Shown in pieces: positions 8,204-43,184 of a stretch of 64,000 bases of DNA. Made by a program: the position numbers and the translations under genes. This stretch comes from Clostridia bacterium (GTDB taxonomy: Bacteria; Bacillota; Clostridia; UBA1212; DUPL01), in the NCBI GenBank assembly GCA_050951325.1, contig JBMNIW010000012.1:187439-251438 (forward strand). Direction: 5' to 3'. The notes beneath the pieces are model-generated. The model did no database searches, was not told where the DNA came from, and was given only the letters and a program-made list of their open reading frames with translations. Each line of letters begins with the position of its first letter. Within the stretch, counting starts at the first letter, position 1.

Positions 8204-8691
8204 GAAGCTGTTCGCGTCGATTTCGGTGCAGCTATTGAGAAAGAATATTTAACATTGGTTGGCTGCACGTCTGTGTTTCCATCTGTGTATTCCAGTTTTG
8301 TTGTACTGATTTCCACATTAGTGCCTGTAGCAAGACTATTAACCTTAAAGGTCATAGAGAACAAATCTTTAGTACTGTTAACAGGTGTTGTCTGTGCGTT
8401 ATCATACGCAATAAACTTCACTGTGCCGGCTGTATTGTTAAACTCTACAAGCCAGGGGGAACCAATTATCTGAGCAGTAGATGTTAATGTAAGTTTGCTG
8501 CTGTCATATTTTAATTCTCCGCTGGCACCTAATATACCACTTCCGCCGATTCTAAATGTAACTGTAATTGTGTCTCCCGACCGTACGGTAGACGGACCAC
8601 TTAGAGCTGCAGTCGGACTTGCCGCATTTACACCTATTGCCGGTAATAGAATAACTGTTATGATAATCATTAATACAATAAACTTTTTCAT
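8191..8691 (-). CDS. Secreted cohesin-domain protein (signal peptide + single cohesin module)
   Basis: Signal peptide MKKFIVLMIIITVILLPAIGVNA; beta-rich ~140-aa module 'GDTITVTFRIGGSGILGASGELKYDSSKLTLTS...TFKVNSLATGTNVEIST' resembling type-I cohesin; strong RBS GGAGG 9 nt upstream. Confidence 0.55.
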   Translation of the reverse strand: MKKFIVLMIIITVILLPAIGVNAASPTAALSGPSTVRSGDTITVTFRIGGSGILGASGELKYDSSKLTLTSTAQIIGSPWLVEFNNTAGTVKFIAYDNAQTTPVNSTKDLFSMTFKVNSLATGTNVEISTTKLEYTDGNTDVQPTNVKYSFSIAAPKSTRTASCSL

Positions 8692-8708
8692 ATATATTTA
8701 CCTCCTCA

Positions 8709-11260: not shown

Positions 11261-11280
11261 CCATCATTAACCTCCTACTC

Positions 11281-14200
11281 TCAGGCAATGCTTACATCCC
11301 AACCGGCAAGATACCGTTCGAATATGATTGCATCCCAGTCGGAAATTTCACCATCATGATCAATATCCATAGCATCTAAGTTAATTTCAACATCCCATCC
11401 TGCAAGGTAACGCTCGAATAGGATTGCATCCCAATCGGAGAGCTCACCATCACCATCTGCATCTCCGGTGATATAATCGACTACTTCGATATATGACGTT
11501 GCAGAAGAAAACTCGATACTCTGACCCATGAAATTTCTCGACTCAACTGGTGTGACTGATACTTCATATAGTCCTTCAGATATTCCTTCTTTGATCTTAA
11601 AAGTTAATTTTACAATATTACCGTTCTGTAAATTATTCTGCGTTGCCAGTGCATCTGTCCATCGTAATATATACGGAGAGCTGATATTTGGAGCAGGATT
11701 GGTAAAACCATTTAACAATCCGGTGTTTTCTATAGAAATAAGTTCTAATGCATCCATGTCATAAGATATATAGTTTCTTAATGAGATGATACCCGGATTA
11801 TTTTCAACTGCAATATATATCTCAACTGTGTCTCCGGCAAATCCTTTAGCACTTAGAATCGAATATTTAGGAGCCGCAGCATCGTATTCTATAACAGTAA
11901 CAAGAACCATTCCGATAAACTCACCGTCAACGGTAGTTGCGGTTACTGTCACATTTCCTTTTGCAACTGCCGTTATATTTCCGTTTGCGTCAACGATCGC
12001 TATATCTTCATTCTCAGAAGCCCAAACAACAGTTTTATCAGTCGTGTCTGCAGGATATACGGTTGCTTTAGCTTTTTTACTTTCCCCTACATACAGTTCT
12101 ATTGAACCAGTGTCCAGATATATACCTTCAGCATGAATAGTTTTTTCTATAACATGAACTGTCACAACTGCTGAATAACCTCCGTCATCAGTGTATACTG
12201 TGATGATTGCCGTTCCGGGTTCAAAGGCTTCTATAACACCGTCTTTTACTGTTGCCACGTTCGGGTTATCCGTAGTCCAGTATACGTTTTTATTTGTTGC
12301 GTTAGATGGAGTAACGGTTACAATTATTGTCTTTCTTTCTCCTGATTTCATTTCAATAAGGGAAGGATTAACAGATACACCTGTTACAGGACGGGCTGTT
12401 TCTGTAACGGTAATTGGCAGTGTTGCAATTCTACCACGATAGTTGATCTCAACACTGCTGTCTGAAACAGAAAGTGCTCTTGTCGGAGATACACTGTATC
12501 CAGTTACATATTTTTCTGCACCTGATGTATAGATTGCTTTAACTTCCATTCCCGTTTCGTCAAAATAGTCACCGGATGTATATCTTGTTTTGCTAGGCGC
12601 GGTAGTTATTTCAATACTTTCAACAGATCCAAAAACAACATCTTCTATGATAAGATCACTTAGCTTCCAGAGCTCACTTGCAAAGTTTCCGTCTATATTT
12701 GCAAGTATACCACCTGTTCCGTCTGTCAGATTTCTGTAAACATTATAGTATGTGGTCTTTGTTACCACAGAGGTAATGGTTTCGTTTGCTTTCAGTTCGT
12801 TTATCATTGCTGACATACTTGAAATGCCATACTGATTGTTGATCTTGTAATCCGCATCTGTAACCACTATATAGAATGATTGAGCATCCGCACGTGTCTC
12901 TAAAAGTGTTGCGGTCTTAAGAGCATCGATAACTGTTTCTTCCCTGTCTCCACCACCACTTACTATGAGTCTGGAAATTGCGTCCTTATAAGCATCGACA
13001 TCAATATACCAGTCCGATGAACCACAATAAATGATTCTTGTGGAATCAAGACCATCACAGGTTATATCCCTGTACTCTATCAAAGCCCACCTTACTGAAA
13101 CACCTTCCCTTTCCAGCATATCTGCAAAGGATTTGATGTTGTTCTTAACATTATTTATTTCATCCCCCATAGATCCTGTAGTATCGATAAGGAATACAAT
13201 ATCTGCAGTTCCATACATGGTTTCGGAAAGTTCAAAAGAAATTTCAACATCGTTTACAACACCACTGGCTAAAGTATATCCGGTTTCTAGTGTTATTGTT
13301 CCGTGGATCGTGTGCTTTCCGGCAACAGAACTGTCATATGAGTATTCATCCCATACAACCGGCAGATAAAATGTCTTTCCGCTGTTTGTAATAACTGCTG
13401 CAGTCGAAGGTACGCCGAGTCCTTCAAATGATGTACCTATTGGCAGTTTGCCGAGGTTCATCGCAGGAATGCTTACAATTATGTTCTTTGTTACTGTCAA
13501 AGTGGCAGTAGTCTTTGCCTCACAGCTGAACTTATAACCATATGCAGCTATTACTGTTCCGTTTATCGTCTGTTCTCCAAAAGTTGCTGCATTGTAATCC
13601 GAAGAGTTCCAGAACACCTTTAACTGGACTGTTTTACCAGATGCGGTAACGGCATTTACTGTTTCAGGTAGCATCAGAGAAGAATAAGGTGTGTTATAGT
13701 CAATATTCCCTAGAGAAACCGTTCTGATCGAAGTAATGATCTCTGCTTCAACCTCTTTATATGTAACTGTAATGTTAAGGCTCTGTATCGCAGTTCCTGA
13801 AACAACTAATCTGTCAGCAGTATAATTCTTTATAACAGGAGAAGTAATACTGTATTTTTCGCCTTCCATAAGTGTTATTACAACACTTGGCTGCGCTGTA
13901 CCTCCACCAGAATAGACATAATTGACAGTGATGGTGTATTGATGAATGTGACAACGTGTACATTCGCCATCTACAAAGTCATGACCTAGTGCCGGAATTC
14001 CTTCTATAAATAAAACAGCCTTACAGTCATCACATACATATCTTTGAATTCCACTGTTAATACAATCCGGCTCTATATCAACAACATATGAGCAATTAGT
14101 GTGATAACATATATCACCCTTCCAAATAGCATACAGAGTAATGTCATTATCACCTATTTCAAATGATTTTTCCCCGGTATATGTGTATTCAGGAATTGAT

Positions 14201-15189
14201 GCAAAAGGATCTACTGACCATCCTAGGAAGATGTAACCATCACGGCTCGGAATATCATCAAACAATACATTTACGACATCCCCATTAGAATAACGTTTTG
14301 TATCAATAGGATGAATGCTTGACCCACCATTGCTGTCATAATTTACAGTCCTCCATAAATAACCGGCAGATACTAAGTATGTTGCAATTACATTGTTATC
14401 AGCATCTTTTATTATAATTGTAATAATGTAAACGCCTGGCTGAGCATCTGACTGCAAATAAAAGAACGCTGTATTTTTCATTAACGAAGTTCCTAAGGTT
14501 ATGCTATCCGATGTCATTCCGCCTTTGTTAAATCCATCGATTATAGCGGAATATTCAATACTTATAGTCATTTCTTCGGATGCTCTTAAATTAAGATCAA
14601 CTGTAACCATCCCGTTTTTATCAATAGAAGCACTTTGAGAATGTTCAACTATAACAGGAGTAACTACAGTGCTTCCTCCGCTAACATTCAACTGTAAGGA
14701 TACATTGCGTGTCCATGAATTCCAGCCGATCACTGATTCATATAATTCAAAGTGGTAAGTATGTCCGTTTATGAAGTATGTTCTGTCGACTGTTAGCGTA
14801 GTAGTGGTCCACGTATCGTTTCGTCCGGAAAGATAATTTTCGAGTAGTATTTCTGTACCATCCGTTTCATCTACCAGATATATCAGACTTCGTTCTCCAC
14901 TTTCTTCATCAATGTCATATGCATATATATTTAACAAGGCATTTTCTTTAACTGTTCCATTGATGGTGATCGATCTTCCAAGCCTGATCCTTTCATTGGC
15001 AGTACCGGAATTAGCAACTAAATCATACCCTCCATTCAGTAAACTCTTGTCATCATAATTTGAATAGGGACTGAAGGATTTTACATCTGCCCCACTACGC
15101 ATACCGTTGTTAAACAAAGAATAATTATTTTCACCATTTACAGTAACAATAGGCTCTTTCTCCTCGGGTGGGAATGAATCAAGATGCAC
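11281..15189 (-). CDS. Giant modular surface protein (1302 aa): Listeria-Bacteroides repeat (Flg_new) - Cys-rich module - Ig-like modules - vWA domain (MIDAS DTTGS) - two Big_2 - cohesin-like module - dockerin; GTG start, no RBS, no signal peptide
   Basis: 'VFLIDTTGSMGDEINNVKNN' vWA; 'NYDSNGGSSIHP...DGYIFLGWSVDP...LYAIW' Flg_new; dockerin 'DADGDGELSDWDAILFERYLAGW' x2; cohesin-like 'GDTVEIYIAVENNPGIISLRNYISYDMDALELIS'. Confidence 0.75.
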   Translation of the reverse strand: MHLDSFPPEEKEPIVTVNGENNYSLFNNGMRSGADVKSFSPYSNYDDKSLLNGGYDLVANSGTANERIRLGRSITINGTVKENALLNIYAYDIDEESGERSLIYLVDETDGTEILLENYLSGRNDTWTTTTLTVDRTYFINGHTYHFELYESVIGWNSWTRNVSLQLNVSGGSTVVTPVIVEHSQSASIDKNGMVTVDLNLRASEEMTISIEYSAIIDGFNKGGMTSDSITLGTSLMKNTAFFYLQSDAQPGVYIITIIIKDADNNVIATYLVSAGYLWRTVNYDSNGGSSIHPIDTKRYSNGDVVNVLFDDIPSRDGYIFLGWSVDPFASIPEYTYTGEKSFEIGDNDITLYAIWKGDICYHTNCSYVVDIEPDCINSGIQRYVCDDCKAVLFIEGIPALGHDFVDGECTRCHIHQYTITVNYVYSGGGTAQPSVVITLMEGEKYSITSPVIKNYTADRLVVSGTAIQSLNITVTYKEVEAEIITSIRTVSLGNIDYNTPYSSLMLPETVNAVTASGKTVQLKVFWNSSDYNAATFGEQTINGTVIAAYGYKFSCEAKTTATLTVTKNIIVSIPAMNLGKLPIGTSFEGLGVPSTAAVITNSGKTFYLPVVWDEYSYDSSVAGKHTIHGTITLETGYTLASGVVNDVEISFELSETMYGTADIVFLIDTTGSMGDEINNVKNNIKSFADMLEREGVSVRWALIEYRDITCDGLDSTRIIYCGSSDWYIDVDAYKDAISRLIVSGGGDREETVIDALKTATLLETRADAQSFYIVVTDADYKINNQYGISSMSAMINELKANETITSVVTKTTYYNVYRNLTDGTGGILANIDGNFASELWKLSDLIIEDVVFGSVESIEITTAPSKTRYTSGDYFDETGMEVKAIYTSGAEKYVTGYSVSPTRALSVSDSSVEINYRGRIATLPITVTETARPVTGVSVNPSLIEMKSGERKTIIVTVTPSNATNKNVYWTTDNPNVATVKDGVIEAFEPGTAIITVYTDDGGYSAVVTVHVIEKTIHAEGIYLDTGSIELYVGESKKAKATVYPADTTDKTVVWASENEDIAIVDANGNITAVAKGNVTVTATTVDGEFIGMVLVTVIEYDAAAPKYSILSAKGFAGDTVEIYIAVENNPGIISLRNYISYDMDALELISIENTGLLNGFTNPAPNISSPYILRWTDALATQNNLQNGNIVKLTFKIKEGISEGLYEVSVTPVESRNFMGQSIEFSSATSYIEVVDYITGDADGDGELSDWDAILFERYLAGWDVEINLDAMDIDHDGEISDWDAIIFERYLAGWDVSIA

Positions 15190-19464: not shown

Positions 19465-20961
19465 ATGGCAAAACAAATAGACATGAATACATATAAACTA
19501 ATACGGAGATTATTCACTGTAGAAGGTGTAAGTCAGAGACAAATAGCAATGCAGTTAGGTATATCAAGACCTACAGTAAAAAAGTATTGTGAAGGATATG
19601 CAATTCCAGGGATAAAGGAAGAAGGAAAACAACAAAAAAGCGAATTAAGATTAACTTTAGAAAAAGAAATAATTCAGCTCTTTGAGGATAATAAAGATGC
19701 ACCGAGAAAGCAAAAACTAAACGCAAAGCTAATATGGCTTTCTCTTAAGGAAAAGGGTTATCCTGTGGGTGAATCTACAATAAGAAAGTATATACAAGAA
19801 ATGAGAATAGAAATGCCAGAGGTTTTTATCCCCTTATCATTTGAACCTGGGGAAGCTATGGAGTTTGACTGGGGAGACATATATGCATACATTAAGAACG
19901 TTAAAACCAGTATTTCTGTATTCTGTGCAGTACTACCATACAGCTATGGGATATTTGCTGCCGTTTTTCCTAATAAGAAGTACATAAGCTTTTTTACAGG
20001 ACACGTTATGGCGTTTGAGTTTTTTCAAGGAGTTGCAAGGCGGTCAATTTACGATAACTTAAAAACAGCAGTTTTAAAAGACTTTGGTGAAAAGGCTGTA
20101 AAACAAGAAAGATTTAAAACTCTAGAAGCGCACTATGCTTTTGAGGGAATATTCTGTAATGCTGACAGTGGTTGGGAAAAAGGTGCGGTTGAAAATCTCG
20201 TTTCAATAATTCGAGAAATTGCATTTACTCCTATGCCAAGAGTAGATAACTATGAGGAGTTGCAAACCCATGTTACTTCTAAATGTATTGAATACAACAT
20301 GAATCATAAAATAAAGAACCGCACAAGAAGCATTCGAGATATGCTAGAGGAAGAGAGAAAGTACTTATTACCACTTCCTGCATATCCTTTTGAACCAGCA
20401 GACGAATTAAAAGTACGAGTGCATTCTGACTTAACCGTTAGAATTGAGGGGCTTAGATACTCCGTTCCTAGTAAGTATGTAGGCCTTGATGTTACTGCTA
20501 AGATAACGCCTTTCAAAATAAACATATACTATCAAGGTAAGCACATATATAGTCATAAAAAAGGAGTAAATCTCTCTGAACATCAATATGTATTAGAGCA
20601 CTATCTAGAAATCATTGAACGAAAACCGAGATCTGCACATAATGCAGTCCCTATAAAAAGCGGTATAATGCCAGAGGAGGCTACCCTTTTTCTAAAACGA
20701 TGTCCTAAACTAAACAAAAACATGCAATTAGTTAACGTGCTTCTTCTTGGAAAGAAAGTCGATCGAGATTCCTTGATGTGGGCAATTAGTCAAGCAAACA
20801 GCACTGGGAATCCCACATACGATTTAGTATGCTTTTATCTGGACATACTAAGTAGCAAGGATAATGCAAAGGATGCAATTGTGGATGAGGTTGAGATAAA
20901 CACAGTTGACCTAACAAAGTATGATAAGTTAATAAGTGCAGAGGGTGATGAATATGAATAA
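19465..20961 (+). CDS. istA: IS21-family transposase IstA (HTH + DDE)
   Basis: 'QRQIAMQLGISRPTVKKY' HTH, ~500 aa, followed by overlapping istB - canonical IS21 organisation. Confidence 0.9.
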   Translation: MAKQIDMNTYKLIRRLFTVEGVSQRQIAMQLGISRPTVKKYCEGYAIPGIKEEGKQQKSELRLTLEKEIIQLFEDNKDAPRKQKLNAKLIWLSLKEKGYPVGESTIRKYIQEMRIEMPEVFIPLSFEPGEAMEFDWGDIYAYIKNVKTSISVFCAVLPYSYGIFAAVFPNKKYISFFTGHVMAFEFFQGVARRSIYDNLKTAVLKDFGEKAVKQERFKTLEAHYAFEGIFCNADSGWEKGAVENLVSIIREIAFTPMPRVDNYEELQTHVTSKCIEYNMNHKIKNRTRSIRDMLEEERKYLLPLPAYPFEPADELKVRVHSDLTVRIEGLRYSVPSKYVGLDVTAKITPFKINIYYQGKHIYSHKKGVNLSEHQYVLEHYLEIIERKPRSAHNAVPIKSGIMPEEATLFLKRCPKLNKNMQLVNVLLLGKKVDRDSLMWAISQANSTGNPTYDLVCFYLDILSSKDNAKDAIVDEVEINTVDLTKYDKLISAEGDEYE

Positions 20962-21706
20962 TCTCTCTCACAACGAATTATCAAATAAGATTAAAACGAT
21001 TGCAAGAGATCTGAAGCTTCAAGCATTTGAAGAGTATAGTGAGTATATTAGAACTGATCTATCTACTGAGGAAGTAGTTTACAACCTCCTTAAGGCAGAA
21101 CAAAGTATAAAAGACTTGAGTAGATATAGGTATCGTATGAAAATGGCCAAGTTCCCAGTTGCTAAAACATTAGATACTTTTCATTTTGATACAAAACGTC
21201 TTCCTGGTTTAAGCAAGGATACCATTATGGAACTTGCGACATGTAAATTCATTGAAGAGAAAAGAAATGTTATAGCTTTAGGTAATCCGGGGACCGGTAA
21301 GACGCATTTGCTAACAGCCCTCTGCATTGAGGCAATAACAAAAGGTTATTCAGTGAGATTTATTAGGGCTTCTGACCTTGTGACTCAAATGACTGAATCC
21401 AAGAATGAAAACGAATTAGCTAAATACATAAAGAAGATTAATACATGTGATGTTCTTTTTATTGACGAATTCGGGTACTTATCTTACGATGCAGCTGGAG
21501 CAAGTTTGCTTTATCAGATATTTGCAAATAGGTATGAAACAAAGAGTACGCTGGTTACCTCAAATTTAGCTTTTTCTAAATGGCTCTCGATTCTTAGTAA
21601 TGACGAAGAATTAGCTTCGGCACTAATCGGACGAATAACCCAGCAGTCCACTATTCTTAACATGAATGGTGAGGATTACAGGGTTTATCTAAGCAAAAAA
21701 CTTTAA
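20936..21706 (+). CDS. istB: IS21-family helper ATPase IstB (AAA+/DnaC-like)
   Basis: Walker A 'GNPGTGKTHL', Walker B 'VLFIDEFGY'; 26-bp overlap with istA. Confidence 0.9.
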   Translation: MQRVMNMNNLSHNELSNKIKTIARDLKLQAFEEYSEYIRTDLSTEEVVYNLLKAEQSIKDLSRYRYRMKMAKFPVAKTLDTFHFDTKRLPGLSKDTIMELATCKFIEEKRNVIALGNPGTGKTHLLTALCIEAITKGYSVRFIRASDLVTQMTESKNENELAKYIKKINTCDVLFIDEFGYLSYDAAGASLLYQIFANRYETKSTLVTSNLAFSKWLSILSNDEELASALIGRITQQSTILNMNGEDYRVYLSKKL

Positions 21707-21721
21707 AACATGTAAACTAAG

Positions 21722-21752
21722 GGTCTGTCTTCCTGACAGATCTCCTTTTTGC
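21722..21752 (+). terminator. Stem-loop TCTGTC-ttcct-GACAGA + T-rich tail after istB
   Basis: Read directly. Confidence 0.4.
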
Positions 21753-21878
21753 CTTTTATTGCATGTGTTCAACTTATAATCAAATATTATATTTTCTTTC
21801 TAGCGGAAACATGGGTCTAGATGGATTGTTTGAGATAATATGGTCTTTATTTACTATCCTCTTCAACGATCCGTACAT

Positions 21879-21900
21879 ATTGGATAGAATTCTATCCAAT
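21879..21900. repeat. 22-bp perfect palindrome ATTGGATAGAATTCTATCCAAT between IS21 and IS1634 remnant
   Basis: Reverse complement identical over 22 bp (contains EcoRI-like GAATTC centre). Confidence 0.7.
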
Positions 21901-21960
21901 ATGCTGTTTATCACTTAATATTCAGCATTTACAAACATTATATATACGGTGAATGGTAAC

Positions 21961-22979
21961 TTATATCATAGCGCTTTTTTGAAAAACTCTGTTTTTAGCC
22001 GGTAAGATAAAACTGTAGCGTTTCCATTTATCTTTAACATCTTTAAAATCTCTATCAAGAAGCACCCATTTCTTCTCTTTATCCGGAAGCTTTTTTACTG
22101 CTTTTGAAAATATGTAACCATCACCATTCTTTTTTGCATACGCTATGTTGTTGGCACAGTTAAGTCCTTTATCTGCTACATGAATGGTTCTTCCTGTTAT
22201 GTTATTTTGCTTTTTAAGATTGCTTATTACATCTCTTATTATAGGTTTTTCAGATTCGTTACCAGGATATATCTTCATTCCTACTGGTATTTGATTGCGA
22301 TCTAGTAATAAACCAAGGCCTACTAGAGGTTTCCTTTGATTTTCTTTACTTACACCATTTTTTTTAAAATCATCTTCTCTATCAATTTCAAAATAAAAAT
22401 TTGTACAATCGAAATAGGTTTTAGTAGTATCTAATTTATATATTTTATCAACCTGTGTAGTAAATATTTCAACAATCTTTTCGTAATTGTTGCCTAGAAA
22501 AGCTAAGCCATCTAGTAGCTGATCGTATGAAAAATTATAGGTTTGATAAAGATTAGGTAGCACTTCATGGAATGTCCTATATTTACTGCAGGGATTAACG
22601 CTTCTTGCGTAAATAAGAGATGATAGTAAATCATAAAGATCGAATTCAAACCTAGTAATTAACTTAAAATAGTCGATAAAGTGCTTAATGTTTAATTTCT
22701 CCATAATACTTTTCAAAGGAAAATAACCTAGGTGAATAAGTGGAGATTTAGTTGAGATTTTTTTACGCTTTCTTCTTTTCTATTTTTATTTAATTCATCA
22801 ACTACCTTTTGATAATGGGCAATAGGATCTTCTATGCCTTTTTCTTTAAGTGTTTCTATAGATCCTAATGATTTATGACAACGATGAGCAGTGCCCTTTT
22901 TTGCAGGATCGTAAAAACTTTCATAAATTGCAATGTATGTTCGATTTTTCTGCTTTGACTTTTTCAAAAAATATGCCAC
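21961..22979 (-). pseudogene. IS1634-family (IS4 superfamily) transposase remnant: N-terminal ~330 aa split into 83-aa and 251-aa ORFs and lacking C-terminal half
   Basis: 83-aa ORF 'MAYFLKKSKQKNRTYIAIYESFYD' and 251-aa ORF '...TYFDCTNFYFEIDRED...MKIYPGNESEKPIIRDV...IHVADKGLNCANNIAYA' align colinearly with the intact 585-aa transposase at 41010..42767. Confidence 0.8.
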
Positions 22980-23056
22980 AACATTCCCTCCAAACTTGCA
23001 CCATGTAGCACCATTATTATCTCATAAAAAAATATTTGTGTCAAGTTTTTACGCAT

Positions 23057-23080
23057 AAAAAAAGCCCTATATTTGGGCGT
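23057..23080 (-). terminator. GCCC-aaatata-GGGC hairpin + T7 upstream of IS1634-remnant transposase start (same position/orientation as hairpin 40906-40933 in intact copy)
   Basis: Read directly; both IS1634 copies carry terminator-like hairpin ~70 bp 5' of tnp. Confidence 0.35.
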
Positions 23081-23340
23081 TTGTTGATGATTATTATCTA
23101 TTTTTGTCCTAATTATTCATGGTGCGAACTACGAAACAAGGGACTTATAATCTGCAATAAATTCAAACCAAGTATTACTGCAACAAAGCAAGTTCCATCA
23201 AAATATGTATACAACATAATCACTTCATAATTTTCTCCAATAACATAGTATTCAGAACTAAAGTTGATTGTTAAGCATTGAGGAAAAATATAATTTCACA
23301 AATATTTACTTGAAATTTAACTTTTTTGTTATATTTCAGA

Positions 23341-23369
23341 TTGACAAATAAATAACAAAGACGTATATT
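23341..23369 (+). promoter_or_regulatory. Sigma-A promoter of ferredoxin/hydrogenase operon: -35 TTGACA, 17-bp spacer, -10 TATATT
   Basis: Canonical hexamers and spacing 52 bp upstream of ATG. Confidence 0.55.
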
Positions 23370-23378
23370 ATAGTAGAA

Positions 23379-23395
23379 GGTTAAAATTTTAACAA
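23379..23395. promoter_or_regulatory. Rex-like operator GGTTAAAATTTTAACAA (14-bp perfect palindrome GTTAAAATTTTAAC; matches clostridial Rex consensus TTGTTAA-N4-TTAACAA in 12/14 positions)
   Basis: Palindrome sits at ~+10..+26 between -10 and RBS of hydrogenase operon. Confidence 0.45.
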
Positions 23396-23420
23396 ATAAC
23401 CTCGCTTTGGAGGAATTTTT

Positions 23421-23675
23421 ATGGAAATAAGAGTATGCATAGGCAGTTCATGCTACCTGAAAGGCTCACGAGAAGTAATAAATGAGCTGAACCAACTAAT
23501 AAAAGAAAACAGCCTAAACAGTATGGTCTCGTTAAAGGGTTCATTCTGTATGGGAAAATGCAGCGTAGACGGCGTCACTGTTAGTTGTGATGACAAATTT
23601 TACTTTGTAGAACCAGATGACGTTGATGACTTTTTTGAAAAGGTAATAGTTCCCTCCATCCCCAGAGCGATATAA
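23421..23675 (+). CDS. Thioredoxin-like [2Fe-2S] ferredoxin (NuoE/HymA-like small subunit)
   Basis: 'CIGSSCYLKGS...CMGKCSVDGVTVSCDD' four-Cys pattern of thioredoxin-like 2Fe-2S ferredoxins; immediately upstream of hydrogenase. Confidence 0.7.
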   Translation: MEIRVCIGSSCYLKGSREVINELNQLIKENSLNSMVSLKGSFCMGKCSVDGVTVSCDDKFYFVEPDDVDDFFEKVIVPSIPRAI

Positions 23676-23773
23676 TTGTTAATTTACATGCTCCCTGTTG
23701 ATACTTGCCGACTTTGTATGGTATAGTAGATGTGACCATACTTATTTGTGCTGCAGATTCACGGGGGAATTAG

Positions 23774-25255
23774 ATGGACAATACTGATATTTTAGCCACT
23801 GAAATAGATGATATAGATACTATAAAAAGTGAAGTTCTGAAAAAAATCAGCGAACTAGCTTTTGACAACAGACTTGACGAGGCTGACACAATAGCCTTTG
23901 AACTTATTCCGGGAGTTCGTCCCAGATTCAGATGTTGTGTATATAGAGAAAGAGAGATAATACGACAAAGAGTCCGAATGGCCATGGGCAAACTGCCTAC
24001 TGATTCCCATTACAAGGATCTAGACCCATCATTGATGGTGCACGTCATTTCCAGCGCATGCGAAGGATGTCCCATTGCGAGATACACTGTAACCGACAAT
24101 TGTCAGAACTGTCTCACTCACAAGTGTATAAAAGTATGTCCTTTTGGCGCTATTTCAAGAACACCCAGAGGCTCGGTTATTGACAAAACCCTTTGCAGAA
24201 ACTGCGGCAAATGCGCCGAAGCATGCCCATATTCCGCAATAGTAGATATAATAAGGCCCTGTGTGAAGGTATGTCCCGTAGATGCCATCAACATGGATAA
24301 AAATGATATTGCGGTAATTGACAAGGATAAATGCATTAACTGTGGAGCATGCGTGACCGGATGTCCTTTTGGTGCTATTTCCGATGTTTCAATGATTACA
24401 AATGTTATAAACCTGCTGCTTGACCATACAAAGAAAGTGTATGCTGTAGTCGCTCCTTCGATTCAAGGCCAGTTTGGCAAAGATATATCTTTGGGAATGA
24501 TTAAAGGAGCCATACTTAATCTTGGTTTTGATGGCATATACGAGGCAGCGGAAGGTGCAGACTCCGTGGCATACATGGAGGCAAAGGAACTTTTAGAGTT
24601 TAAAAAAGAAGGGAAGCCTCTTCTTTCATCCTGCTGCCCATCCTTCTTTACTCTTGTGGAAAACTATTTCCCCGAGCTTAAAGATAATGTTTCCACCCTG
24701 GTGCCTCCAATGGCAGCCAGTGCGATATATATAAAAAACATGGACCCTGATGCTGAAATTGTTTTCATAGGTCCATGCATCTCCAAAAAAGCAGATGTCC
24801 TAAGCAACTATATAAACATTATCTCTGCAGTGCTTACATTTGAAGAGCTTGTTGCAATGCTCAGGGCGAAAAGAATCAACATAAGAAACCAGGCAGACAT
24901 GTCCTCGGATTCATCCTCTTACGGTAAAGGCTTTGCACGCTCTGGTGGTGTTGCCCAGGCTATAAGGAAAGTCGTGAGTGAACTTGAGGGCGATGAAGCA
25001 TCAAGCAGTTTGGAAATCCAAATTTGTGACGGCAGCAAGGAGTGCATAAACGCATTAAAACTACTCAAGCACAACAGGCTCCGGGTTGACTTTGTAGAGG
25101 GTATGTGCTGCACTGGAGGATGCATTGCTGGCCCTTCAGTTTTACAGGATGCTTCCCACACAAAAAAACTCTTTAAACCTTCTGATGAAGATACTTCCAT
25201 TGAGAGTGCAGTCTTGAAATTAAGAATAAACGAACTTGATATTCACCGCACTTGA
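23774..25255 (+). CDS. [FeFe]-hydrogenase-like catalytic (H-cluster) protein with two N-terminal 4Fe-4S ferredoxin domains; non-canonical H-cluster motifs
   Basis: Ferredoxin motifs CRNCGKCAEACP / CINCGACVTGCP; L1 'SSCCPSF', L2 'GPCISKKAD', L3 'EGMCCTGGCIAGP' vs canonical TSCCPxW / MPCxxKxxE / ExMxCxxGCxxG. Confidence 0.75.
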   Translation: MDNTDILATEIDDIDTIKSEVLKKISELAFDNRLDEADTIAFELIPGVRPRFRCCVYREREIIRQRVRMAMGKLPTDSHYKDLDPSLMVHVISSACEGCPIARYTVTDNCQNCLTHKCIKVCPFGAISRTPRGSVIDKTLCRNCGKCAEACPYSAIVDIIRPCVKVCPVDAINMDKNDIAVIDKDKCINCGACVTGCPFGAISDVSMITNVINLLLDHTKKVYAVVAPSIQGQFGKDISLGMIKGAILNLGFDGIYEAAEGADSVAYMEAKELLEFKKEGKPLLSSCCPSFFTLVENYFPELKDNVSTLVPPMAASAIYIKNMDPDAEIVFIGPCISKKADVLSNYINIISAVLTFEELVAMLRAKRINIRNQADMSSDSSSYGKGFARSGGVAQAIRKVVSELEGDEASSSLEIQICDGSKECINALKLLKHNRLRVDFVEGMCCTGGCIAGPSVLQDASHTKKLFKPSDEDTSIESAVLKLRINELDIHRT

Positions 25256-26115
25256 TAATTCGACGGATCATATTCAGGCACTGCGCCAAGTCTTGTTACT
25301 ACAAACGAACTTAACTGAACCGCCTTGTCAAGACAAGCCTGCAAATTATTCCCTTTTAGGTAATTATATAAAAATGCTGCGGAAAAACTATCTCCTGCTC
25401 CAACTGTTGAGACAACCTTTACAGGTGTTGGTTTGGATTTGTGAAATTCTTTGTCTTTTGCAGAATACAAAAATGCACCCTCTTCACCCAATGTGACCAA
25501 TATTATTTTAATATCATATTCCTTTGCCAGCTTTATGGAGAGTTCTTCAAGATTTGAGTACTCCAGCAAACCTGTCTCCTTAAATACAAAAGCTTCTTCC
25601 TCACTAATTTTCAATATTGTACTGTGCACAAGACTTTCTTCTACGATTTCCCTTGTATAGAAGTCCTGCCGAATATTTATATCACAAAACACTTCATCGA
25701 AGTTGCAACCCCTTACAAGTTTTTTAAATGTTTCGGAGGACACTACACTTCTTCTAGCCAGTGTACCCATGTAAAAGGCATCATAATGCAATTTCAATGC
25801 TTCCTCATCTACCGTAATATTATCGTAAGCCACATCTCTTACCAAATAATATGTAGGATTTCCGTACTCGTCCACACTTACATTGCAAACGCCAGTAGGT
25901 TTCTCAAGTACCTTTATGAATCTGTCATCAATTCCAAATTTCCGTACCATTTTTAACGATTCCTGACCAAGGCCGTCCTTTCCCACAGCAGAAACCACCT
26001 GGACTTCGCCCCCCAGTTTTGAAAGATGCGCACCAAAATTCAAGGGAGCTCCTCCAATTTCATATTTCCCGGGAAAAACATCCCATAAGATTTCGCCAAA
26101 AACCAGTATTTTCAT
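25243..26115 (-). CDS. PfkB-family sugar kinase (fructokinase-like)
   Basis: 'KILVFGEILWDVFP...GGAPLNF' N-term and 'GAGDSF' motif. Confidence 0.75.
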   Translation of the reverse strand: MKILVFGEILWDVFPGKYEIGGAPLNFGAHLSKLGGEVQVVSAVGKDGLGQESLKMVRKFGIDDRFIKVLEKPTGVCNVSVDEYGNPTYYLVRDVAYDNITVDEEALKLHYDAFYMGTLARRSVVSSETFKKLVRGCNFDEVFCDINIRQDFYTREIVEESLVHSTILKISEEEAFVFKETGLLEYSNLEELSIKLAKEYDIKIILVTLGEEGAFLYSAKDKEFHKSKPTPVKVVSTVGAGDSFSAAFLYNYLKGNNLQACLDKAVQLSSFVVTRLGAVPEYDPSNYQVR

Positions 26116-35186: not shown

Positions 35187-36881
35187 TTATTGATAATATG
35201 ATATTTTAATAAGTTCCTGGGGTGACGTTATCCCCTTTCTTACAAGCTCCATTGCGCTCTCCTTAAGAGTCATCATGCCCTGCTCCTCAATGGCATAAGC
35301 CTGTATTTCGTCCATTGGAGCCTTGCTGGATATGAGTGTCCTCAATGTCCTGTCGATTATAGCCATCTCATGGATGGCAATTCTGCCCTTGTAGCCCGTA
35401 TTGTTGCAGATGTGGCAGCCGGTACCTTTTTTGACTTCGACAATATCATCGTCAAGGAACTCTCTTTCTGAAAGCTCCGGTTTGTACGTTGTCATGCAGT
35501 ATGGACATATTTTTCGAATAAGCCTCTGTGCTACTAGTCCTGTAACGGAGTTAGCTATAAGGTATGGAGATATGCCCATGTCGTTCAATCTTACTATGGC
35601 AGACAAAGCATCATTTGTATGCAGTGTAGACAAGACAAGGTGTCCAGTAATGGCGGCTCTTACTGATATCTGTGCGGTTTCTATATCCCTTGTTTCTCCA
35701 ACCATTATGATATCAGGGTCTTGTCTAAGTATCGCCCTTAATCCCACGTCAAAAGTAAGGCCTGCCACGTTGTTAACCTGCATCTGATTCACTCTTTCGA
35801 GGTTTCTTTCCACAGGGTCCTCAATGGTGGATATGTTTACTTCTCCTTTTGACAAATGTTCCAATGCCATATACAAAGTTGTGGTCTTTCCGCTTCCGGT
35901 AGGACCTGTAATATATATGATTCCGTGAGGTGACATGAGCATTTGTTTAAACTTTTCATAATTTGTTGAGTTCATTCCAAACTGGTCCTTGTTGTCGATA
36001 GGCGTATCGGTGAGAAGAAATCTCATAACCGCCTTTTCACCATAGATTGTTGGAATTATGGACACCCTCACGTTTATTTCATTACCCTCAACAACTGTCC
36101 TGAAATGGCCATCCTGGGGGACTCTTTTCTCTGCTATGTTCAGGTTGGAAAGAATCTTTATACGTGCTATCAAAGGATTTTGTATTTGATGGGTAAGGTT
36201 CATGTAATCGACAAGCATCCCATCCACCCTGAACCTTATTACCGTTCGTTCTTCAAAAGGCTCTATGTGAATATCGCTCGCGTTGGTACTGTAGCCTTTT
36301 GACAATAGACTATCAAGCAGCCTTACCACCGGTGCCAAGGTAGTGCTCTCCGCCTCTTCCACATTCGTTACTTCCACAGTTGTGCTTAGAACGCTGGAAT
36401 GGGCGTGTTTTGCAGCTTTCTGAGCATCTATTTCACTGTAATAATAGTTGATTAGATCGAGTATGCTTTGTGACTCGGAAAGATAAAGGGAGAGATTCAT
36501 TTTTGTAAGCTGTCTTATGTCCTCAATGGCATAGAAGTTAAGCGGGTCACTCATGGCAACGGACAATGTTCCATTCTCCACTTTTATGCCTATCATATTG
36601 TACTTTACAGCCAGGTCTTTTGGTATCTTGCTTACTGCCTCTATTTCTACGGGAAATGCGATAACATTTATAACAGGGAGGTTAAGACGCTGTCCCAATG
36701 CCTCAATAACCTGGGTTTCTGTAACAAAGCCAAGTTCAATAAGTATCTGTCCCAGTCTTTTTTTTCTGTCCCTTTTCTGGGCCTCGAGAGCCTGGTTCAA
36801 CTGGTCATCGTTGATATAATTGTATTCCTTTAGGACTTCGCCTATAGGAACATTCACAATGTTGCTCATAATCTCACCCAT
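35187..36881 (-). CDS. pilB: Type IV pilus assembly ATPase PilB (GspE family) with N-terminal T2SSE_N domain and C-terminal Cys4 zinc site
   Basis: Walker A 'GPTGSGKTTTLY', 'CPYC...CHICNNTGYKGR'. Confidence 0.9.
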   Translation of the reverse strand: MGEIMSNIVNVPIGEVLKEYNYINDDQLNQALEAQKRDRKKRLGQILIELGFVTETQVIEALGQRLNLPVINVIAFPVEIEAVSKIPKDLAVKYNMIGIKVENGTLSVAMSDPLNFYAIEDIRQLTKMNLSLYLSESQSILDLINYYYSEIDAQKAAKHAHSSVLSTTVEVTNVEEAESTTLAPVVRLLDSLLSKGYSTNASDIHIEPFEERTVIRFRVDGMLVDYMNLTHQIQNPLIARIKILSNLNIAEKRVPQDGHFRTVVEGNEINVRVSIIPTIYGEKAVMRFLLTDTPIDNKDQFGMNSTNYEKFKQMLMSPHGIIYITGPTGSGKTTTLYMALEHLSKGEVNISTIEDPVERNLERVNQMQVNNVAGLTFDVGLRAILRQDPDIIMVGETRDIETAQISVRAAITGHLVLSTLHTNDALSAIVRLNDMGISPYLIANSVTGLVAQRLIRKICPYCMTTYKPELSEREFLDDDIVEVKKGTGCHICNNTGYKGRIAIHEMAIIDRTLRTLISSKAPMDEIQAYAIEEQGMMTLKESAMELVRKGITSPQELIKISYYQ

Positions 36882-37516
36882 TACATTAGCAGTTCAAACA
36901 AATTGAATTTGCCTTCCTCGTGCATATATATCTCAAAAGTCATTACTATTCCAACATTTGATGCATCCTCTCCCAATGAGCCACCCTCTCCTGAAAGTAT
37001 GTTACAGGTCTCTATCCTTATTGTCCCGGTTTCTGAAAACAAATCCAAAATATTTTCAAAATCCTCCATACTCCCTTCAAGACGTATGGAAATCCTCATA
37101 GCCTGAACGTTTACCGCTTCTTCCTTCTTATCGCTCTGCATGTATGGCAGTATCTCTTTGGTAAAGGGGCCAGTTACGTTAAAGCTTTTAAGTACAATAT
37201 TGTTTCTAATTGCAATTTCCGATACAAAAGCATCTATTTGCTGGTTGCTTAGCACAGGATTCATTCTGGAAAGAAGCTCGTCCACTTCTGTTTCAAGCTC
37301 CACAATCTCTTCCTTGTATCTTTCGTAATTGTTTATGCCGCTCCTTACCTCGAATTCCTTAAGCTCAAGTTCAAAAAGTGTGTTTTCTAATTCGCTGTGC
37401 CTGTCAAAAAGGGGCTTTACTACAAACATTCCAATACCATAAAGGATAAGGATGACCAGCAGGATGTATAATAGAACTTTTTCTCTTTTTGTGAGCTTTC
37501 TAAAAATCGTTGACAT
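36881..37516 (-). CDS. pilO: PilO-like type IV pilus biogenesis protein
   Basis: Single N-terminal TM + coiled coil, position after pilN. Confidence 0.5.
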   Translation of the reverse strand: MSTIFRKLTKREKVLLYILLVILILYGIGMFVVKPLFDRHSELENTLFELELKEFEVRSGINNYERYKEEIVELETEVDELLSRMNPVLSNQQIDAFVSEIAIRNNIVLKSFNVTGPFTKEILPYMQSDKKEEAVNVQAMRISIRLEGSMEDFENILDLFSETGTIRIETCNILSGEGGSLGEDASNVGIVMTFEIYMHEEGKFNLFELLM

Positions 37517-38103
37517 TATTCATGCACCCCTGCTTTCAATAGGCACGTAACCTTGAATGTATATTCATTCTCCCTGATTTGACTCCAACCATCATAATAT
37601 ACTTCCTCAAAAAGCTGCGTGGCGCTCAAATCCTGAGTGAATGTTGATGCCGCTTTAATGTCCGTTGTTGATACATGCAATACCATATATGCGCCGCCAA
37701 CATTTGAACTGTAGGAAATGTCATGTATTACAATATCATCCTTCATGCATCCTTCTATCTTTTCAAACAGTTCCGAATTGAAAAATGGATATGAATTATA
37801 ATTGTTTCTGAATTTTATCAATGCACTTTCTTTATCATTTAGTTCACTTTGCCTATCCTTTATTTCAACTACTTCCTCATGTTTTTTTGATATCTCGGGA
37901 TTGTTCAAATACTCGTTTATCTTGTCAATCTCACTGGAAAGCTCTTGATTCTTTACATAAAGCCAATATGACATTCCTCCCATTATCATTACGATTAATA
38001 TGGGGAAAATCGCCAGAAGTACACCCGTTGGATTCTTCTCCTTCTTTACTTTTGATTTTTTTAGTGCCTTGTACAGATTAATATCTTTTGTCATATCGCC
38101 CAT
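37516..38103 (-). CDS. pilN: PilN-like type IV pilus biogenesis protein
   Basis: Single TM 'GVLLAIFPILIVMIMGGMSYWLY' + coiled coil, position after pilM. Confidence 0.5.
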   Translation of the reverse strand: MGDMTKDINLYKALKKSKVKKEKNPTGVLLAIFPILIVMIMGGMSYWLYVKNQELSSEIDKINEYLNNPEISKKHEEVVEIKDRQSELNDKESALIKFRNNYNSYPFFNSELFEKIEGCMKDDIVIHDISYSSNVGGAYMVLHVSTTDIKAASTFTQDLSATQLFEEVYYDGWSQIRENEYTFKVTCLLKAGVHE

Positions 38104-38114
38104 CCTACCCCAAC

Positions 38115-43052: not shown

Positions 43053-43184
43053 TTCTATAACAGGATGTCTGTTTAGGCTATCTTTAGTTAGCGTAAAGAT
43101 TCTCTAGGTTTGTGACAAAAAAAGTAAAGCCCCTCAATATGTTATAATATATTTGTGAAAATAAAACAAGGAGTGAGCTTTACT

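What the first reader, a model, noticed from the sequence alone, without database searches (positions are those of the whole stretch)
23341..25255. [FeFe]-hydrogenase-like gene with altered H-cluster motifs, preceded by a Rex-like operator overlapping the transcription start
L1, L2 and L3 read SSCCPSF, GPCISKKAD and EGMCCTGGCIAGP instead of TSCCPxW, MPCxxKxxE and ExMACxxGC. The T-to-S, M-to-G and E-to-D changes touch residues implicated in proton transfer and H-cluster tuning. This suggests a non-prototypical (group B-like or sensory or bifurcating-partner) hydrogenase. It is paired with a thioredoxin-like [2Fe-2S] ferredoxin. The palindrome GGTTAAAATTTTAACAA matches the clostridial Rex box, implying NADH/NAD+-responsive control.
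Basis: partly seen in the sequence, partly recalled or inferred. Interest (0 to 1): 0.55.

Follow-up and report, generated by a model that had tools for sequence, protein, structure and literature searches.

The report
Group B hydrogenase operon with Rex box
This is an ordinary, almost certainly active, hydrogen-producing enzyme gene of a known class (group B [FeFe]-hydrogenase) with a small iron-sulfur partner gene and a probable redox-sensing (Rex) switch; the one unusual point is that its lineage has lost the hydrogen-sensor genes that sit between the two genes in its nearest relatives.

Summary
The sequence observations are correct. ORF 23774-25255 (493 aa) carries SSCCPSF, GPCISKKAD and EGMCCTGGC. 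ORF 23421-23675 (84 aa) is a thioredoxin-like [2Fe-2S] protein. AGGTTAAAATTTTAACAA (23378-23395) matches the clostridial Rex consensus at 12 of 14 specified positions and lies just after a TTGACA-17-TATATT promoter.

The hydrogenase passes the curated NCBIfam model TIGR04105 (monomeric [FeFe] hydrogenase, B1). In 80 relatives, Gly in L2 and Phe in L1 are invariant family traits. Only T->S, E->D and A->C are lineage-specific, and all three are conservative. H-cluster ligands and the proton relay are intact, so it is catalytic. It is not sensory and not a bifurcating partner.

The nearest relatives outside its clade carry the known hfsABCD layout: small ferredoxin, PAS-containing HydS sensor, PP2C phosphatase, group B hydrogenase. 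The window's clade (five lineages) keeps only the first and last genes.

The Rex box alone is not significant in the window (1.2 expected by chance). However, such boxes occur upstream of 33 of 80 group B genes, against 0.8 in shuffles. A second conserved promoter without a Rex box lies directly before the hydrogenase gene. No rex or hydEFG gene is in the window.

Verdict: new member of a known kind, modest interest.

The parts
23341..23369 (+). Promoter P1: -35 TTGACA, 17-nt spacer, -10 TATATT
   Evidence: It matches 11 of 12 consensus positions. It is conserved in all five members of the two-gene clade, at 70-100% hydrogenase identity; the -35 hexamer and the first five bases of the -10 hexamer are identical. 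The stretch TTGACAAATAAATAACAA (23341-23358) is also a 3-mismatch Rex-like site, but that conservation cannot be separated from promoter function.
23378..23395 (.). Rex-like operator AGGTTAAAATTTTAACAA at the predicted transcription start
   Evidence: It has 2 mismatches to TTGTTAANNNNTTAACAA and is the only hit with 2 or fewer mismatches in 64 kb. It is conserved in L012 and L090; the only changes fall in the unspecified N4 spacer. Relatives L091 and L089 instead carry Rex-like boxes just upstream of the -35. Across the family there is strong enrichment.
23421..23675 (+). 84-aa thioredoxin-like [2Fe-2S] protein, positional equivalent of hfsA
   Evidence: PF01257 scores 30.6 bits against a cut-off of 24.8, with a Cx4C...Cx3C pattern. 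An RBS GGAGG lies upstream. dN/dS against L012 is 0.09. Its homologs head clusters of ferredoxin, HydS, PP2C and group B hydrogenase in L009-L011, L034, L037, L040, L092 and L094-L096.
23698..23727 (+). Promoter-like P2 in the intergenic region: TTGATA, 18 nt, TG-extended TATAGT
   Evidence: Found. The -35 and extended -10 elements are conserved in window, L012, L090 and L091. A similar TTGCTA...TGTTATATT element lies before the hydrogenase gene in L089, where an unrelated gene separates the pair. The intergenic region has 3 differences in 98 nt against L012, although 44-46% of synonymous sites differ. No Rex-like site with 3 or fewer mismatches lies here.
23774..25255 (+). 493-aa monomeric group B [FeFe]-hydrogenase (hfsD-type)
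   Evidence: TIGR04105 scores 543 bits against a cut-off of 450. Fe_hyd_lg_C covers residues 220-454, with Fer4 domains before it. The AF2 model has pLDDT 89.9 and pTM 0.87. Its best PDB folds are CbA5H and CpI [FeFe]-hydrogenases, at E about 1e-20 and TM about 0.6. dN/dS against L012 is 0.05.
24626..24646 (+). L1 motif SSCCPSF (residues 285-291)
   Evidence: C287 and C288 are invariant. F291 is invariant in the family. S285 is Thr in 75 of 80 members.
24770..24796 (+). L2 motif GPCISKKAD (residues 333-341)
   Evidence: G333, P334, C335, K338 and K339 are invariant in 80 of 80 members. D341 is Glu in 77 of 80.
25097..25123 (+). L3 motif EGMCCTGGC (residues 442-450)
   Evidence: E442, G443, M444, C446, G449 and C450 are invariant. 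C445 is Ala in 59 of 80 members and varies across V, I, C, S and F. The motif fits the canonical ExMxCxxGC.

Best explanation
The segment is a two-gene operon. The first gene encodes an 84-aa thioredoxin-like [2Fe-2S] protein. The second encodes a 493-aa monomeric group B [FeFe]-hydrogenase.

The hydrogenase has a complete H-cluster site, an intact proton relay, and 18 conserved cysteines before the H domain, enough for four [4Fe-4S] clusters. Most likely it works as a ferredoxin-dependent, H2-evolving fermentative enzyme that disposes of reductant from pyruvate:ferredoxin oxidoreductase. That role is inferred from characterised group B enzymes. The 'altered' motif residues are largely the signature of group B, not a departure from it.

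The operon is a reduced form of the known four-gene hfsABCD cluster (small ferredoxin, PAS-containing sensory hydrogenase HydS/HfsB, PP2C phosphatase HfsC, group B hydrogenase HfsD). An ancestor of this clade lost the two middle, regulatory genes.

Transcription starts at a near-consensus sigma-A promoter, P1. Its start site is covered by a Rex-type operator. Inferred mechanism: Rex represses at low NADH/NAD+, and a rise in NADH releases it and raises expression. A second conserved promoter, P2, directly upstream of the hydrogenase gene probably gives Rex-independent expression of the enzyme.
For: Family membership:
- TIGR04105 is above its curated cut-off and the group A models are far below theirs.
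- Pfam domains fit.
- 5944 homologs have E of 1e-20 or better, several named 'monomeric [FeFe] hydrogenase'.
- The fold matches solved [FeFe]-hydrogenases.

Catalytic competence:
- C287, C288, C335, C446 and C450 are invariant, as are K338 and M444.
- Relay residues E269, E272 and S307 are invariant and align with CpI E279, E282 and S319.

Motifs are family traits.

Group B enzymes are active H2 producers coupled to PFOR, with four accessory clusters (PMC12578642). TsHfsD is group B and the main H2 producer in its organism (PMC8924675, PMC11837493).

Loss of hfsBC:
- Eleven four-gene-type loci were found, ten of them headed by the small ferredoxin.
- The two-gene clade (window, L012, L090, L091, L089) shares synteny.
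- In a neighbour-joining tree it is monophyletic and nested among members with the four-gene layout.
- Both genes are under purifying selection.

Rex:
- Geometry and match are as described.
- The box is conserved in L012 and L090, and alternative Rex-like boxes occur at the same promoter in L091 and L089.
- 33 of 80 upstream regions of group B genes carry a box with 2 or fewer mismatches. Shuffles give 0.79 +/- 0.84, and AT-rich control windows give 2 of 76.
- The consensus, and Rex control of [FeFe]-hydrogenase operons, are established by DAP-seq and EMSA in C. thermocellum (PMC8457756).
- Searching with 2 mismatches allowed is standard practice (PMC5367854).
Against: - No rex gene is in the window, in 10 kb to its left, or near any related locus. 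The probe was validated as Rex. Presence of rex in the genome is therefore untested.
- The box alone is not significant in the window.
- The box is absent at the +1 position in L091 and L089.
- The nearest four-gene relatives (L009-L011, L092, L094) show no Rex box upstream of their ferredoxin gene.
- P2 could make hydrogenase expression largely independent of Rex.
- No hydE, hydF or hydG is in the window, so maturation capacity is unverified.
- The direction of catalysis and the electron partner are inferred from other group B enzymes, none of which has a solved structure.
- No remnant of hfsB or hfsC is detectable in the intergenic region.
- Orthology of the 84-aa protein to T. saccharolyticum HfsA itself was not tested. 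Only positional equivalence in hfs-like clusters was shown.
Confidence: 0.78

Rival explanations
1. The palindrome is a chance AT-rich inverted repeat, or the site of some other regulator, and the operon is not under Rex control.
For: About 1.2 hits with 2 or fewer mismatches are expected per 64-kb window by chance. The box is missing at this position in the 74% and 70% relatives. The closest four-gene relatives lack boxes upstream of their ferredoxin gene. No rex gene was seen in the available sequence.
Against: The box sits exactly at the predicted +1 of a strong conserved promoter. In L012 and L090 it changes only in the unspecified spacer. L091 and L089 have other Rex-like boxes at the same promoter. 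Across group B genes, 33 of 80 upstream regions carry a box, against 0.8 expected. It does not match other firmicute boxes as I recall them (CodY, LexA, PerR/Fur, cre); that comparison rests on memory only.
Confidence: 0.28
2. The protein is a sensory (HydS-like, group C/D) hydrogenase that signals H2 level rather than turning it over.
For: Gly replaces Met in L2. From memory, a similar replacement is reported for putative sensory enzymes; this is a recollection, not a test. The gene family is genomically linked to a sensory module in relatives.
Against: There is no PAS or other output domain. The relay cysteine (C287) and the E269, S307, E272 relay are retained and invariant; reviews attribute the slow turnover of the sensors to loss of that cysteine (PMC8924675). 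In relatives the sensor is a different gene with PAS and an FeS domain. The protein passes the group B model. Group B enzymes make H2 (PMC12578642).
Confidence: 0.03
3. The pair is part of a multimeric NAD(P)H-linked or electron-bifurcating hydrogenase, with the 84-aa protein acting as a NuoE/HydC-like subunit.
For: The small protein hits the NuoE/HoxE family models weakly, and sources label it 'NADH:ubiquinone oxidoreductase subunit E'.
Against: Those hits are far below the curated cut-offs (25-27 bits against 141-224) and cover only the C-terminal [2Fe-2S] part. No NuoF/HydB-like flavoprotein gene is in the operon or among the window ORFs of 150 aa or more that were examined, and none sits in the four-gene clusters. 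The group A6 NADH-dependent model scores 130 against 765.
Confidence: 0.04
4. The two-gene arrangement is ancestral, and the HydS-PP2C pair was inserted in the relatives instead of being lost here.
For: The tree is midpoint-rooted neighbour-joining only. No remnant of hfsB or hfsC is found in the 98-nt spacer. The spacer carries its own promoter, unlike the tightly packed genes of L092.
Against: The two-gene clade is nested inside four-gene lineages. The four-gene form occurs in distant lineages: Maliibacterium, a Sebaldella MAG, Lachnospiraceae MAGs, and per the literature Thermoanaerobacterium and R. albus (PMC5707799). Outside this clade the small ferredoxin is never found next to a group B gene without HydS.
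Confidence: 0.12

Closest known systems
Group B [FeFe]-hydrogenases (HydDB group B; NCBIfam TIGR04105 'monomeric [FeFe] hydrogenase, B1'), e.g. Bacteroides fragilis HydM and C. pasteurianum CpIII
   Same: It passes the curated family model. Length is about 490 aa. It has an N-terminal Cys-rich region sufficient for four [4Fe-4S] clusters plus an H domain. The family-invariant GPCxxKK and SCCPxF motifs are present. The expected role is fermentative H2 production from reduced ferredoxin (PMC12578642).
   Different: It has the lineage-specific conservative replacements S285, D341 and C445. It is accompanied by a small [2Fe-2S] protein gene, which most group B loci sampled here lack. Its activity is untested.
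hfsABCD operon of Thermoanaerobacterium saccharolyticum / HydS-HydA2 unit of Ruminococcus albus
   Same: The first and last genes have the same kind and order: a small protein, then a group B hydrogenase. The nearest relatives outside the clade have the full four-gene layout, with a PAS-containing [FeFe] sensor and a SpoIIE/PP2C phosphatase (PMC5707799, PMC11837493).
   Different: The sensor (hfsB) and phosphatase (hfsC) genes are absent here and in four related lineages. A separate conserved promoter lies before the hydrogenase gene. This resembles the engineered hfsB-deleted or hfsD-only genotypes studied for ethanol yield, but occurs naturally.
Clostridial Rex regulon (operator TTGTTAANNNNTTAACAA)
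   Same: 12 of the 14 specified positions match, the core is palindromic, the site lies at the transcription start of a redox-balancing gene, and hydrogenase operons are documented Rex targets (PMC8457756, PMC5367854).
   Different: Both mismatches are at the 5' edge (AG instead of TT). No rex gene was seen in the sequence available, and binding is untested. Documented hydrogenase targets in C. thermocellum and C. bescii are multi-gene iron-only hydrogenase operons (Clo1313_1885-81, orthologous to Athe_1295-99) and hydG, not group B genes (PMC8457756).
Prototypical group A1 [FeFe]-hydrogenase CpI (PDB 4XDC, 3C8Y)
   Same: The H-domain fold is the same (Foldseek E about 1e-19, TM about 0.6). 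All H-cluster cysteine ligands, K358, M497 and the relay residues C299, E279, S319 and E282 are conserved.
   Different: Identity is 22-25%. M353 is Gly, W303 is Phe, T297 is Ser, E361 is Asp, and R286 aligns to a gap. The N-terminal cluster domains differ. The group A models fail their cut-offs.

Membership tests
Group B [FeFe]-hydrogenase (TIGR04105 FeFe_hydrog_B1) | Score above the curated whole-protein cut-off of the family model, over its full length | tested here: met
   543.2 bits against a cut-off of 450; residues 13-459 match profile positions 4-461 of 462.
Group B [FeFe]-hydrogenase (TIGR04105 FeFe_hydrog_B1) | H-domain with the cysteine ligands of the H-cluster in the three motifs L1, L2 and L3 | tested here: met
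   Fe_hyd_lg_C covers residues 220-454 at 1.5e-54. C288, C335, C446 and C450, plus the relay C287, are invariant in 80 and in 51 relatives and align to CpI C300, C355, C499, C503 and C299.
Group B [FeFe]-hydrogenase (TIGR04105 FeFe_hydrog_B1) | Monomeric architecture with an N-terminal ferredoxin-like region able to hold four [4Fe-4S] clusters | tested here: met
   18 invariant Cys lie in residues 54-197, including two classical CxxCxxCxxxCP motifs. Fer4 family hits are present. The confident AF2 model shows a separate N-terminal region. This agrees with the description in PMC12578642. Cluster occupancy itself is not testable here.
Group B [FeFe]-hydrogenase (TIGR04105 FeFe_hydrog_B1) | H2-evolving activity with a bound H-cluster | not testable with these tools
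   This needs expression, maturation with [2Fe]adt or HydEFG, and an activity or EPR assay.
Group A (prototypical or bifurcating) [FeFe]-hydrogenase | Score above the cut-off of the group A models | tested here: not met
   TIGR02512 scores 165 against 406, NF040762 scores 131 against 900, and NF040763 scores 130 against 765.
Group C/D sensory [FeFe]-hydrogenase (HydS/HfsB type) | C-terminal PAS (or other signalling) domain and loss of the proton-relay cysteine | tested here: not met
   No PAS or FeS (PF04060) domain is present, and C287 is retained. True HydS genes in relatives do have PF04060 and PAS.
hfsABCD-type operon | Gene order: small [2Fe-2S] protein, PAS-containing hydrogenase, PP2C phosphatase, group B hydrogenase | tested here: not met
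   Only the first and last genes are present. No HydS or PP2C homolog occurs anywhere in the 64-kb window. Relatives L009-L011, L034, L037, L040, L092 and L094-L096 have all four genes.
Thioredoxin-like [2Fe-2S] ferredoxin (PF01257) | Family model above the gathering score, and four Cys in a Cx4C...Cx3C pattern | tested here: met
   30.6 bits against 24.8, covering the C-terminal half of the profile (positions 67-143 of 145). C6, C11, C43 and C47 are conserved in all five clade members.
Rex regulon member | Operator matching TTGTTAANNNNTTAACAA in the promoter region | tested here: met
   2 mismatches, at 23378-23395, 9 nt after the -10 hexamer. It is conserved in two relatives, and the family-wide enrichment is 33 of 80 against 0.8 expected.
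Rex regulon member | A rex gene in the same genome | tested here: inconclusive
   None was found in the 64-kb window, in 10 kb to its left, or in any fetched locus, using a validated Rex probe. The rest of the 506-kb contig and of the genome could not be read.
Rex regulon member | NADH-sensitive binding of Rex to the site, and derepression in vivo | not testable with these tools
   This needs EMSA or DAP-seq and expression data.

The most novel reading that the evidence does not exclude
This clade is a natural 'sensor-less' version of the hfs system. After loss of the H2-sensing HydS/PP2C pair, control of the group B hydrogenase was taken over by NADH/NAD+ sensing (Rex boxes arising at the old operon promoter) together with a new dedicated promoter.

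The small [2Fe-2S] protein HfsA has been retained under purifying selection for a long time without the sensor. That would show it to be a working partner of the catalytic hydrogenase (an electron-transfer or assembly subunit) and not a component of the sensor. It would assign a role to a protein whose function in the studied hfs operons is still unknown.
Probability: 0.3. Interest if true: 0.45.

Novelty: new member of a known kind. Interest (0 to 1): 0.3.

Why it matters
Group B [FeFe]-hydrogenases were recently shown to be major H2 producers in gut anaerobes, yet they remain without a structure or detailed biochemistry. The hfs operon is an engineering target for ethanol yield in thermophilic clostridia.

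A cellulosome-bearing digester clostridium that naturally lacks the hfsB/hfsC regulatory genes but keeps hfsA and hfsD is a useful natural comparison for those engineered strains.

The finding that about 40% of sampled group B genes carry a Rex box upstream suggests that NADH/NAD+ sensing is a common control of this enzyme class.

None of this changes current understanding. The motif 'alterations' that prompted the finding are the normal signature of the family.

Tried and rejected
1. A remnant of hfsB or hfsC in the 98-106-nt spacers of four clade members was sought with blastx. Only noise was found (E > 0.4).
2. A known RNA element in 22900-25500 was sought in Rfam at E <= 1. There were no hits.
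3. A stable RNA structure in the spacer was tested. The z-score was -1.5, which is unremarkable.
4. The rex gene was sought by tblastn with B. subtilis Rex, a probe recalled from memory and then validated against PDB 2VT2. It was not found in the window or in any locus. Extending left of the window found only IS21 copies and sugar genes. Extension to the right failed because the end protein is not on record.
5. hydE, hydF, hydG, HydS, PP2C and NuoF-like genes were sought in the window with Pfam scans of 30 ORFs. None was found.
6. The 433-aa gene between the pair in L089 was tested as a possible degenerate sensor. It is unrelated, being an HTH plus HipA-like kinase.
7. A look-up of window protein 41010-42767 to annotate neighbours returned another locus, because the protein is a transposase.
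8. The Ravcheev 2012 and Zhang 2014 Rex-regulon papers are not held. The consensus is therefore cited through PMC8457756 and PMC5367854.
9. The sensory and bifurcating readings were considered and rejected (see the rival explanations).
Full report
**Observation**

The region holds two same-strand ORFs, each with a good ribosome-binding site. ORF 23421-23675 encodes 84 aa and is preceded by GGAGG. ORF 23774-25255 encodes 493 aa and is preceded by GGGGG.

The three quoted motifs are present:
- SSCCPSF at residues 285-291.
- GPCISKKAD at residues 333-341.
- EGMCCTGGC(IAGP) at residues 442-454.

A near-consensus sigma-70-type promoter, TTGACA-17-TATATT, lies at 23341-23369. Nine bases later comes AGGTTAAAATTTTAACAA (23378-23395). 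This has two mismatches to the clostridial Rex consensus TTGTTAANNNNTTAACAA and is the only such hit in the window.

**What the large protein is**

- Pfam finds Fe_hyd_lg_C at residues 220-454 and several 4Fe-4S domains before it.
- NCBIfam TIGR04105 (FeFe_hydrog_B1, 'monomeric [FeFe] hydrogenase') scores 543 bits against a curated cut-off of 450, over essentially the whole protein.
- The group A models fail badly: 165 against 406, 131 against 900 and 130 against 765.
- No solved structure is closer than CpI by sequence (1e-30 over the H domain).
- An AlphaFold2 model built with 50 homologs is confident (pLDDT 89.9, pTM 0.87).
- Its best structural matches are CbA5H, CpI and other [FeFe]-hydrogenases (E about 1e-20, TM about 0.6, 22-25% identity).

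**The 'altered' motifs**

I aligned 80 family members (79 loci from species-representative genomes plus the window).
- Gly of GPC is invariant (80 of 80), and so is Phe of SCCPxF (80 of 80). These are the signature of the family, not peculiarities of this gene.
- L3 fits the canonical ExMxCxxGC. The Ala position is variable across the family (A, V, I, C, S, F).
- Only Ser285 (Thr in 75 of 80) and Asp341 (Glu in 77 of 80) are specific to this small lineage, and both are conservative.
- The HMMER alignment to CpI puts C287, C288, C335, C446 and C450 on CpI C299, C300, C355, C499 and C503. It puts K338 on K358, M444 on M497, and E269, E272 and S307 on the proton-relay residues E279, E282 and S319.
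- All of these are invariant in a 51-sequence alignment.

The changed residues are therefore not the proton relay, and the relay is intact. Reviews attribute the slow turnover of the sensory enzymes to loss of the relay cysteine (PMC8924675); here it is present and there is no PAS domain.

Group B enzymes from Bacteroides have been shown to bind an H-cluster and make H2. They are coupled to pyruvate:ferredoxin oxidoreductase and have four accessory [4Fe-4S] clusters (PMC12578642). Here 18 invariant cysteines precede the H domain.

I conclude that this is a catalytic, ferredoxin-linked group B hydrogenase. Membership is shown. The direction of catalysis and the partner are inferred.

**The small protein and the operon's history**

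The 84-aa protein passes PF01257 (30.6 bits against 24.8) and has C6-x4-C11...C43-x3-C47. Its NuoE/HoxE hits are far below their cut-offs.

Its homologs are not scattered. In L009, L010, L011, L034, L037 and L040 they sit about 3 kb upstream of the group B gene. Two genes lie between:
- A protein of about 570 aa with Fe_hyd_lg_C, PF04060 and PAS domains, which is a HydS-type sensory hydrogenase.
- A SpoIIE/PP2C phosphatase of about 390 aa.

Three further close relatives of the hydrogenase (L092, L093, L094) were also examined. So were two loci reached independently from the small protein (L095, the isolate Maliibacterium massiliense, and L096). All five show the same cluster, and only L093 lacks the small gene.

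This is the published hfsABCD layout of Thermoanaerobacterium, equivalent to HydS-HydA2 of Ruminococcus albus. In that system HfsB is the putative H2 sensor, HfsC a phosphatase and HfsD the group B enzyme (PMC5707799, PMC11837493, PMC8924675).

The window, by contrast, has the small gene directly followed by the hydrogenase. The same holds for L012 (94% hydrogenase identity), L090 (81%) and L091 (74%), and in effect for L089 (70%). In L089 an unrelated gene encoding an HTH plus HipA-like kinase has been inserted between the pair.

These five loci share flanking genes: DUF4474 upstream, and PfkB, lyxose isomerase-like and thiamine pyrophosphokinase genes downstream. In a neighbour-joining tree they form one clade, nested among lineages that all have the four-gene layout, with L092 as sister. 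Loss of hfsB and hfsC in their common ancestor is the parsimonious reading.

No remnant of the lost genes is detectable. Both remaining genes are under strong purifying selection: dN/dS is 0.09 and 0.05 against L012, and both genes are intact in all five lineages although synonymous sites are saturated. The small protein thus keeps a function without the sensor. In the roughly 65 stand-alone group B loci no such small gene is nearby.

**The Rex box**

Taken alone it is weak evidence. Shuffles of the window give 1.22 hits with 2 or fewer mismatches, and 66 of 100 shuffles have at least one. Its support comes from four points.

1. Position. It starts 9 nt after the -10 hexamer of a promoter that is conserved in all five clade members.
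2. Conservation. L012 and L090 keep the box and change only the unspecified spacer. L091 and L089 lack it at +1. They have other Rex-like boxes, with 2 and 3 mismatches, immediately upstream of the -35, which is the kind of site turnover seen in regulons.
3. Family-wide enrichment. A box with 2 or fewer mismatches occurs within 320 nt upstream of the operon in 33 of 80 loci, spread over many subclades. Of the 46 such hits in 954 kb of fetched sequence, 33 lie in these 25 kb. Dinucleotide shuffles of the same regions give 0.79 +/- 0.84 regions with a hit (maximum 3). The most AT-rich control windows of the same loci give 2 of 76.
4. Literature. The consensus, and Rex control of [FeFe]-hydrogenase operons, are established by DAP-seq and EMSA in C. 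thermocellum (PMC8457756). Searching with two mismatches allowed is standard practice (PMC5367854).

Against it:
- No rex gene is in the window, in 10 kb to its left, or in any fetched locus. The probe was validated against PDB 2VT2. The rest of the genome could not be read.
- The closest four-gene relatives show no box upstream of their ferredoxin gene.

I put Rex control of P1 at about 0.65-0.7.

The 98-nt spacer between the two genes contains a second promoter-like element, TTGATA-18-TATAGT with a TG extension (23698-23727). It is conserved in window, L012, L090 and L091. In L089 a similar element stays with the hydrogenase gene, although another gene separates the pair there.

The spacer differs from L012 at only 3 of 98 positions, whereas 44-46% of synonymous sites differ in the flanking genes. 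It is therefore under constraint. No terminator-like site follows the ferredoxin gene. No Rex-like site lies at P2.

The hydrogenase gene is thus probably transcribed both by read-through from the Rex-guarded P1 and from its own P2. The Rex operator precedes the ferredoxin gene and lies 379 nt before the hydrogenase start codon.

**Context**

The window comes from a 506-kb metagenome contig (JGI 3300053716). The organism is a low-GC (39%) clostridium with cohesin and dockerin genes. The nearest named genome is the MAG 'Clostridiaceae bacterium AS15tlH2ME_177'.

In this strain an IS-associated rearrangement ends at 23142, which is 199 nt upstream of the -35. It removed most of the divergent DUF4474 gene, which in other strains is followed by nadA, nadB and nadC. 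The promoter region is untouched. No hydE/F/G, HydS, PP2C or NuoF-like gene is among the window ORFs examined.

**Verdict**

It is partly wrong: the motif changes are family traits and do not touch the proton relay, and the enzyme is neither sensory nor a bifurcating partner.

This is a new member of a known enzyme family, in a reduced variant of a known operon, under a known type of regulator. The modest points of interest are the natural loss of the sensor module with retention of the small [2Fe-2S] protein, and the broad association of Rex boxes with group B hydrogenase genes.

Noticed in passing
window 19465-23142: An IS21-type istA/istB pair (19465-21706) lies next to a split transposase (21961-22979, minus strand). 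The rearrangement breakpoint is at 23142. Only the first 76 nt of the divergent DUF4474 gene remain (23142-23217). In strains L002-L008 the genes DUF4474, a metallophosphoesterase gene and nadA/B/C occupy this side. Further IS21 copies lie just left of the window (L097).
   Followed up: partly
window 23676-23773: The spacer between the ferredoxin and hydrogenase genes has 3 differences in 98 nt against L012, although 44-46% of synonymous sites in the flanking genes differ. Besides promoter P2, it holds an inverted repeat, GTATGGT (23716-23722) and ACCATAC (23735-23741), overlapping the -10. L090 and L091 keep the arms ATGGT/ACCAT and ATGAT/ATCAT, a compensatory change, but with different spacing. 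The RNA fold z-score is only -1.5 and there is no Rfam hit.
   Followed up: partly
L092 1-7467: In the sister lineage of the two-gene clade, adhE lies directly upstream of the four-gene hfs-like cluster. Tandem Rex boxes (1 and 2 mismatches, at 112-129 and 136-153) precede adhE. This echoes the reported regulatory link between hfsB and adhE.
   Followed up: no
L089 2533-3834: A 433-aa gene with an HTH and a weak HipA-like kinase signature is inserted between the small ferredoxin gene and the hydrogenase gene. The hydrogenase keeps its own promoter-like element.
   Followed up: partly
window 23933-24364 (residues 54-197 of the hydrogenase): Eighteen family-invariant cysteines precede the H domain, two more than four cubane clusters need. 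Among them is a Cys-Cys pair in an invariant FRCCVYRERE motif within the N-terminal helical region. Which cysteines ligate which cluster is unresolved.
   Followed up: no
window 25243-25255: The 3' end of the hydrogenase gene overlaps the convergent PfkB-family kinase gene (25243-26115, minus strand) by 13 nt. No terminator-like site is detected between them. The same overlap occurs in L012.
   Followed up: no
L093 2860-3070: One four-gene-type relative has the HydS, PP2C and group B genes but no small ferredoxin gene (no tblastn hit). The small protein is therefore not obligatory for the cluster.
   Followed up: no
window 7214-15189 and 35187-40207: Cellulosome-type genes are present: cohesin at 8191-8691, and dockerin-bearing Ig-like or VWA proteins at 8709-15189. 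A type IV pilus / T2SS-like cluster (T2SSE, PilM-like, T2SSF) is also present. Two further transposase genes lie at 41010-42767 and 43155-44522.
   Followed up: no
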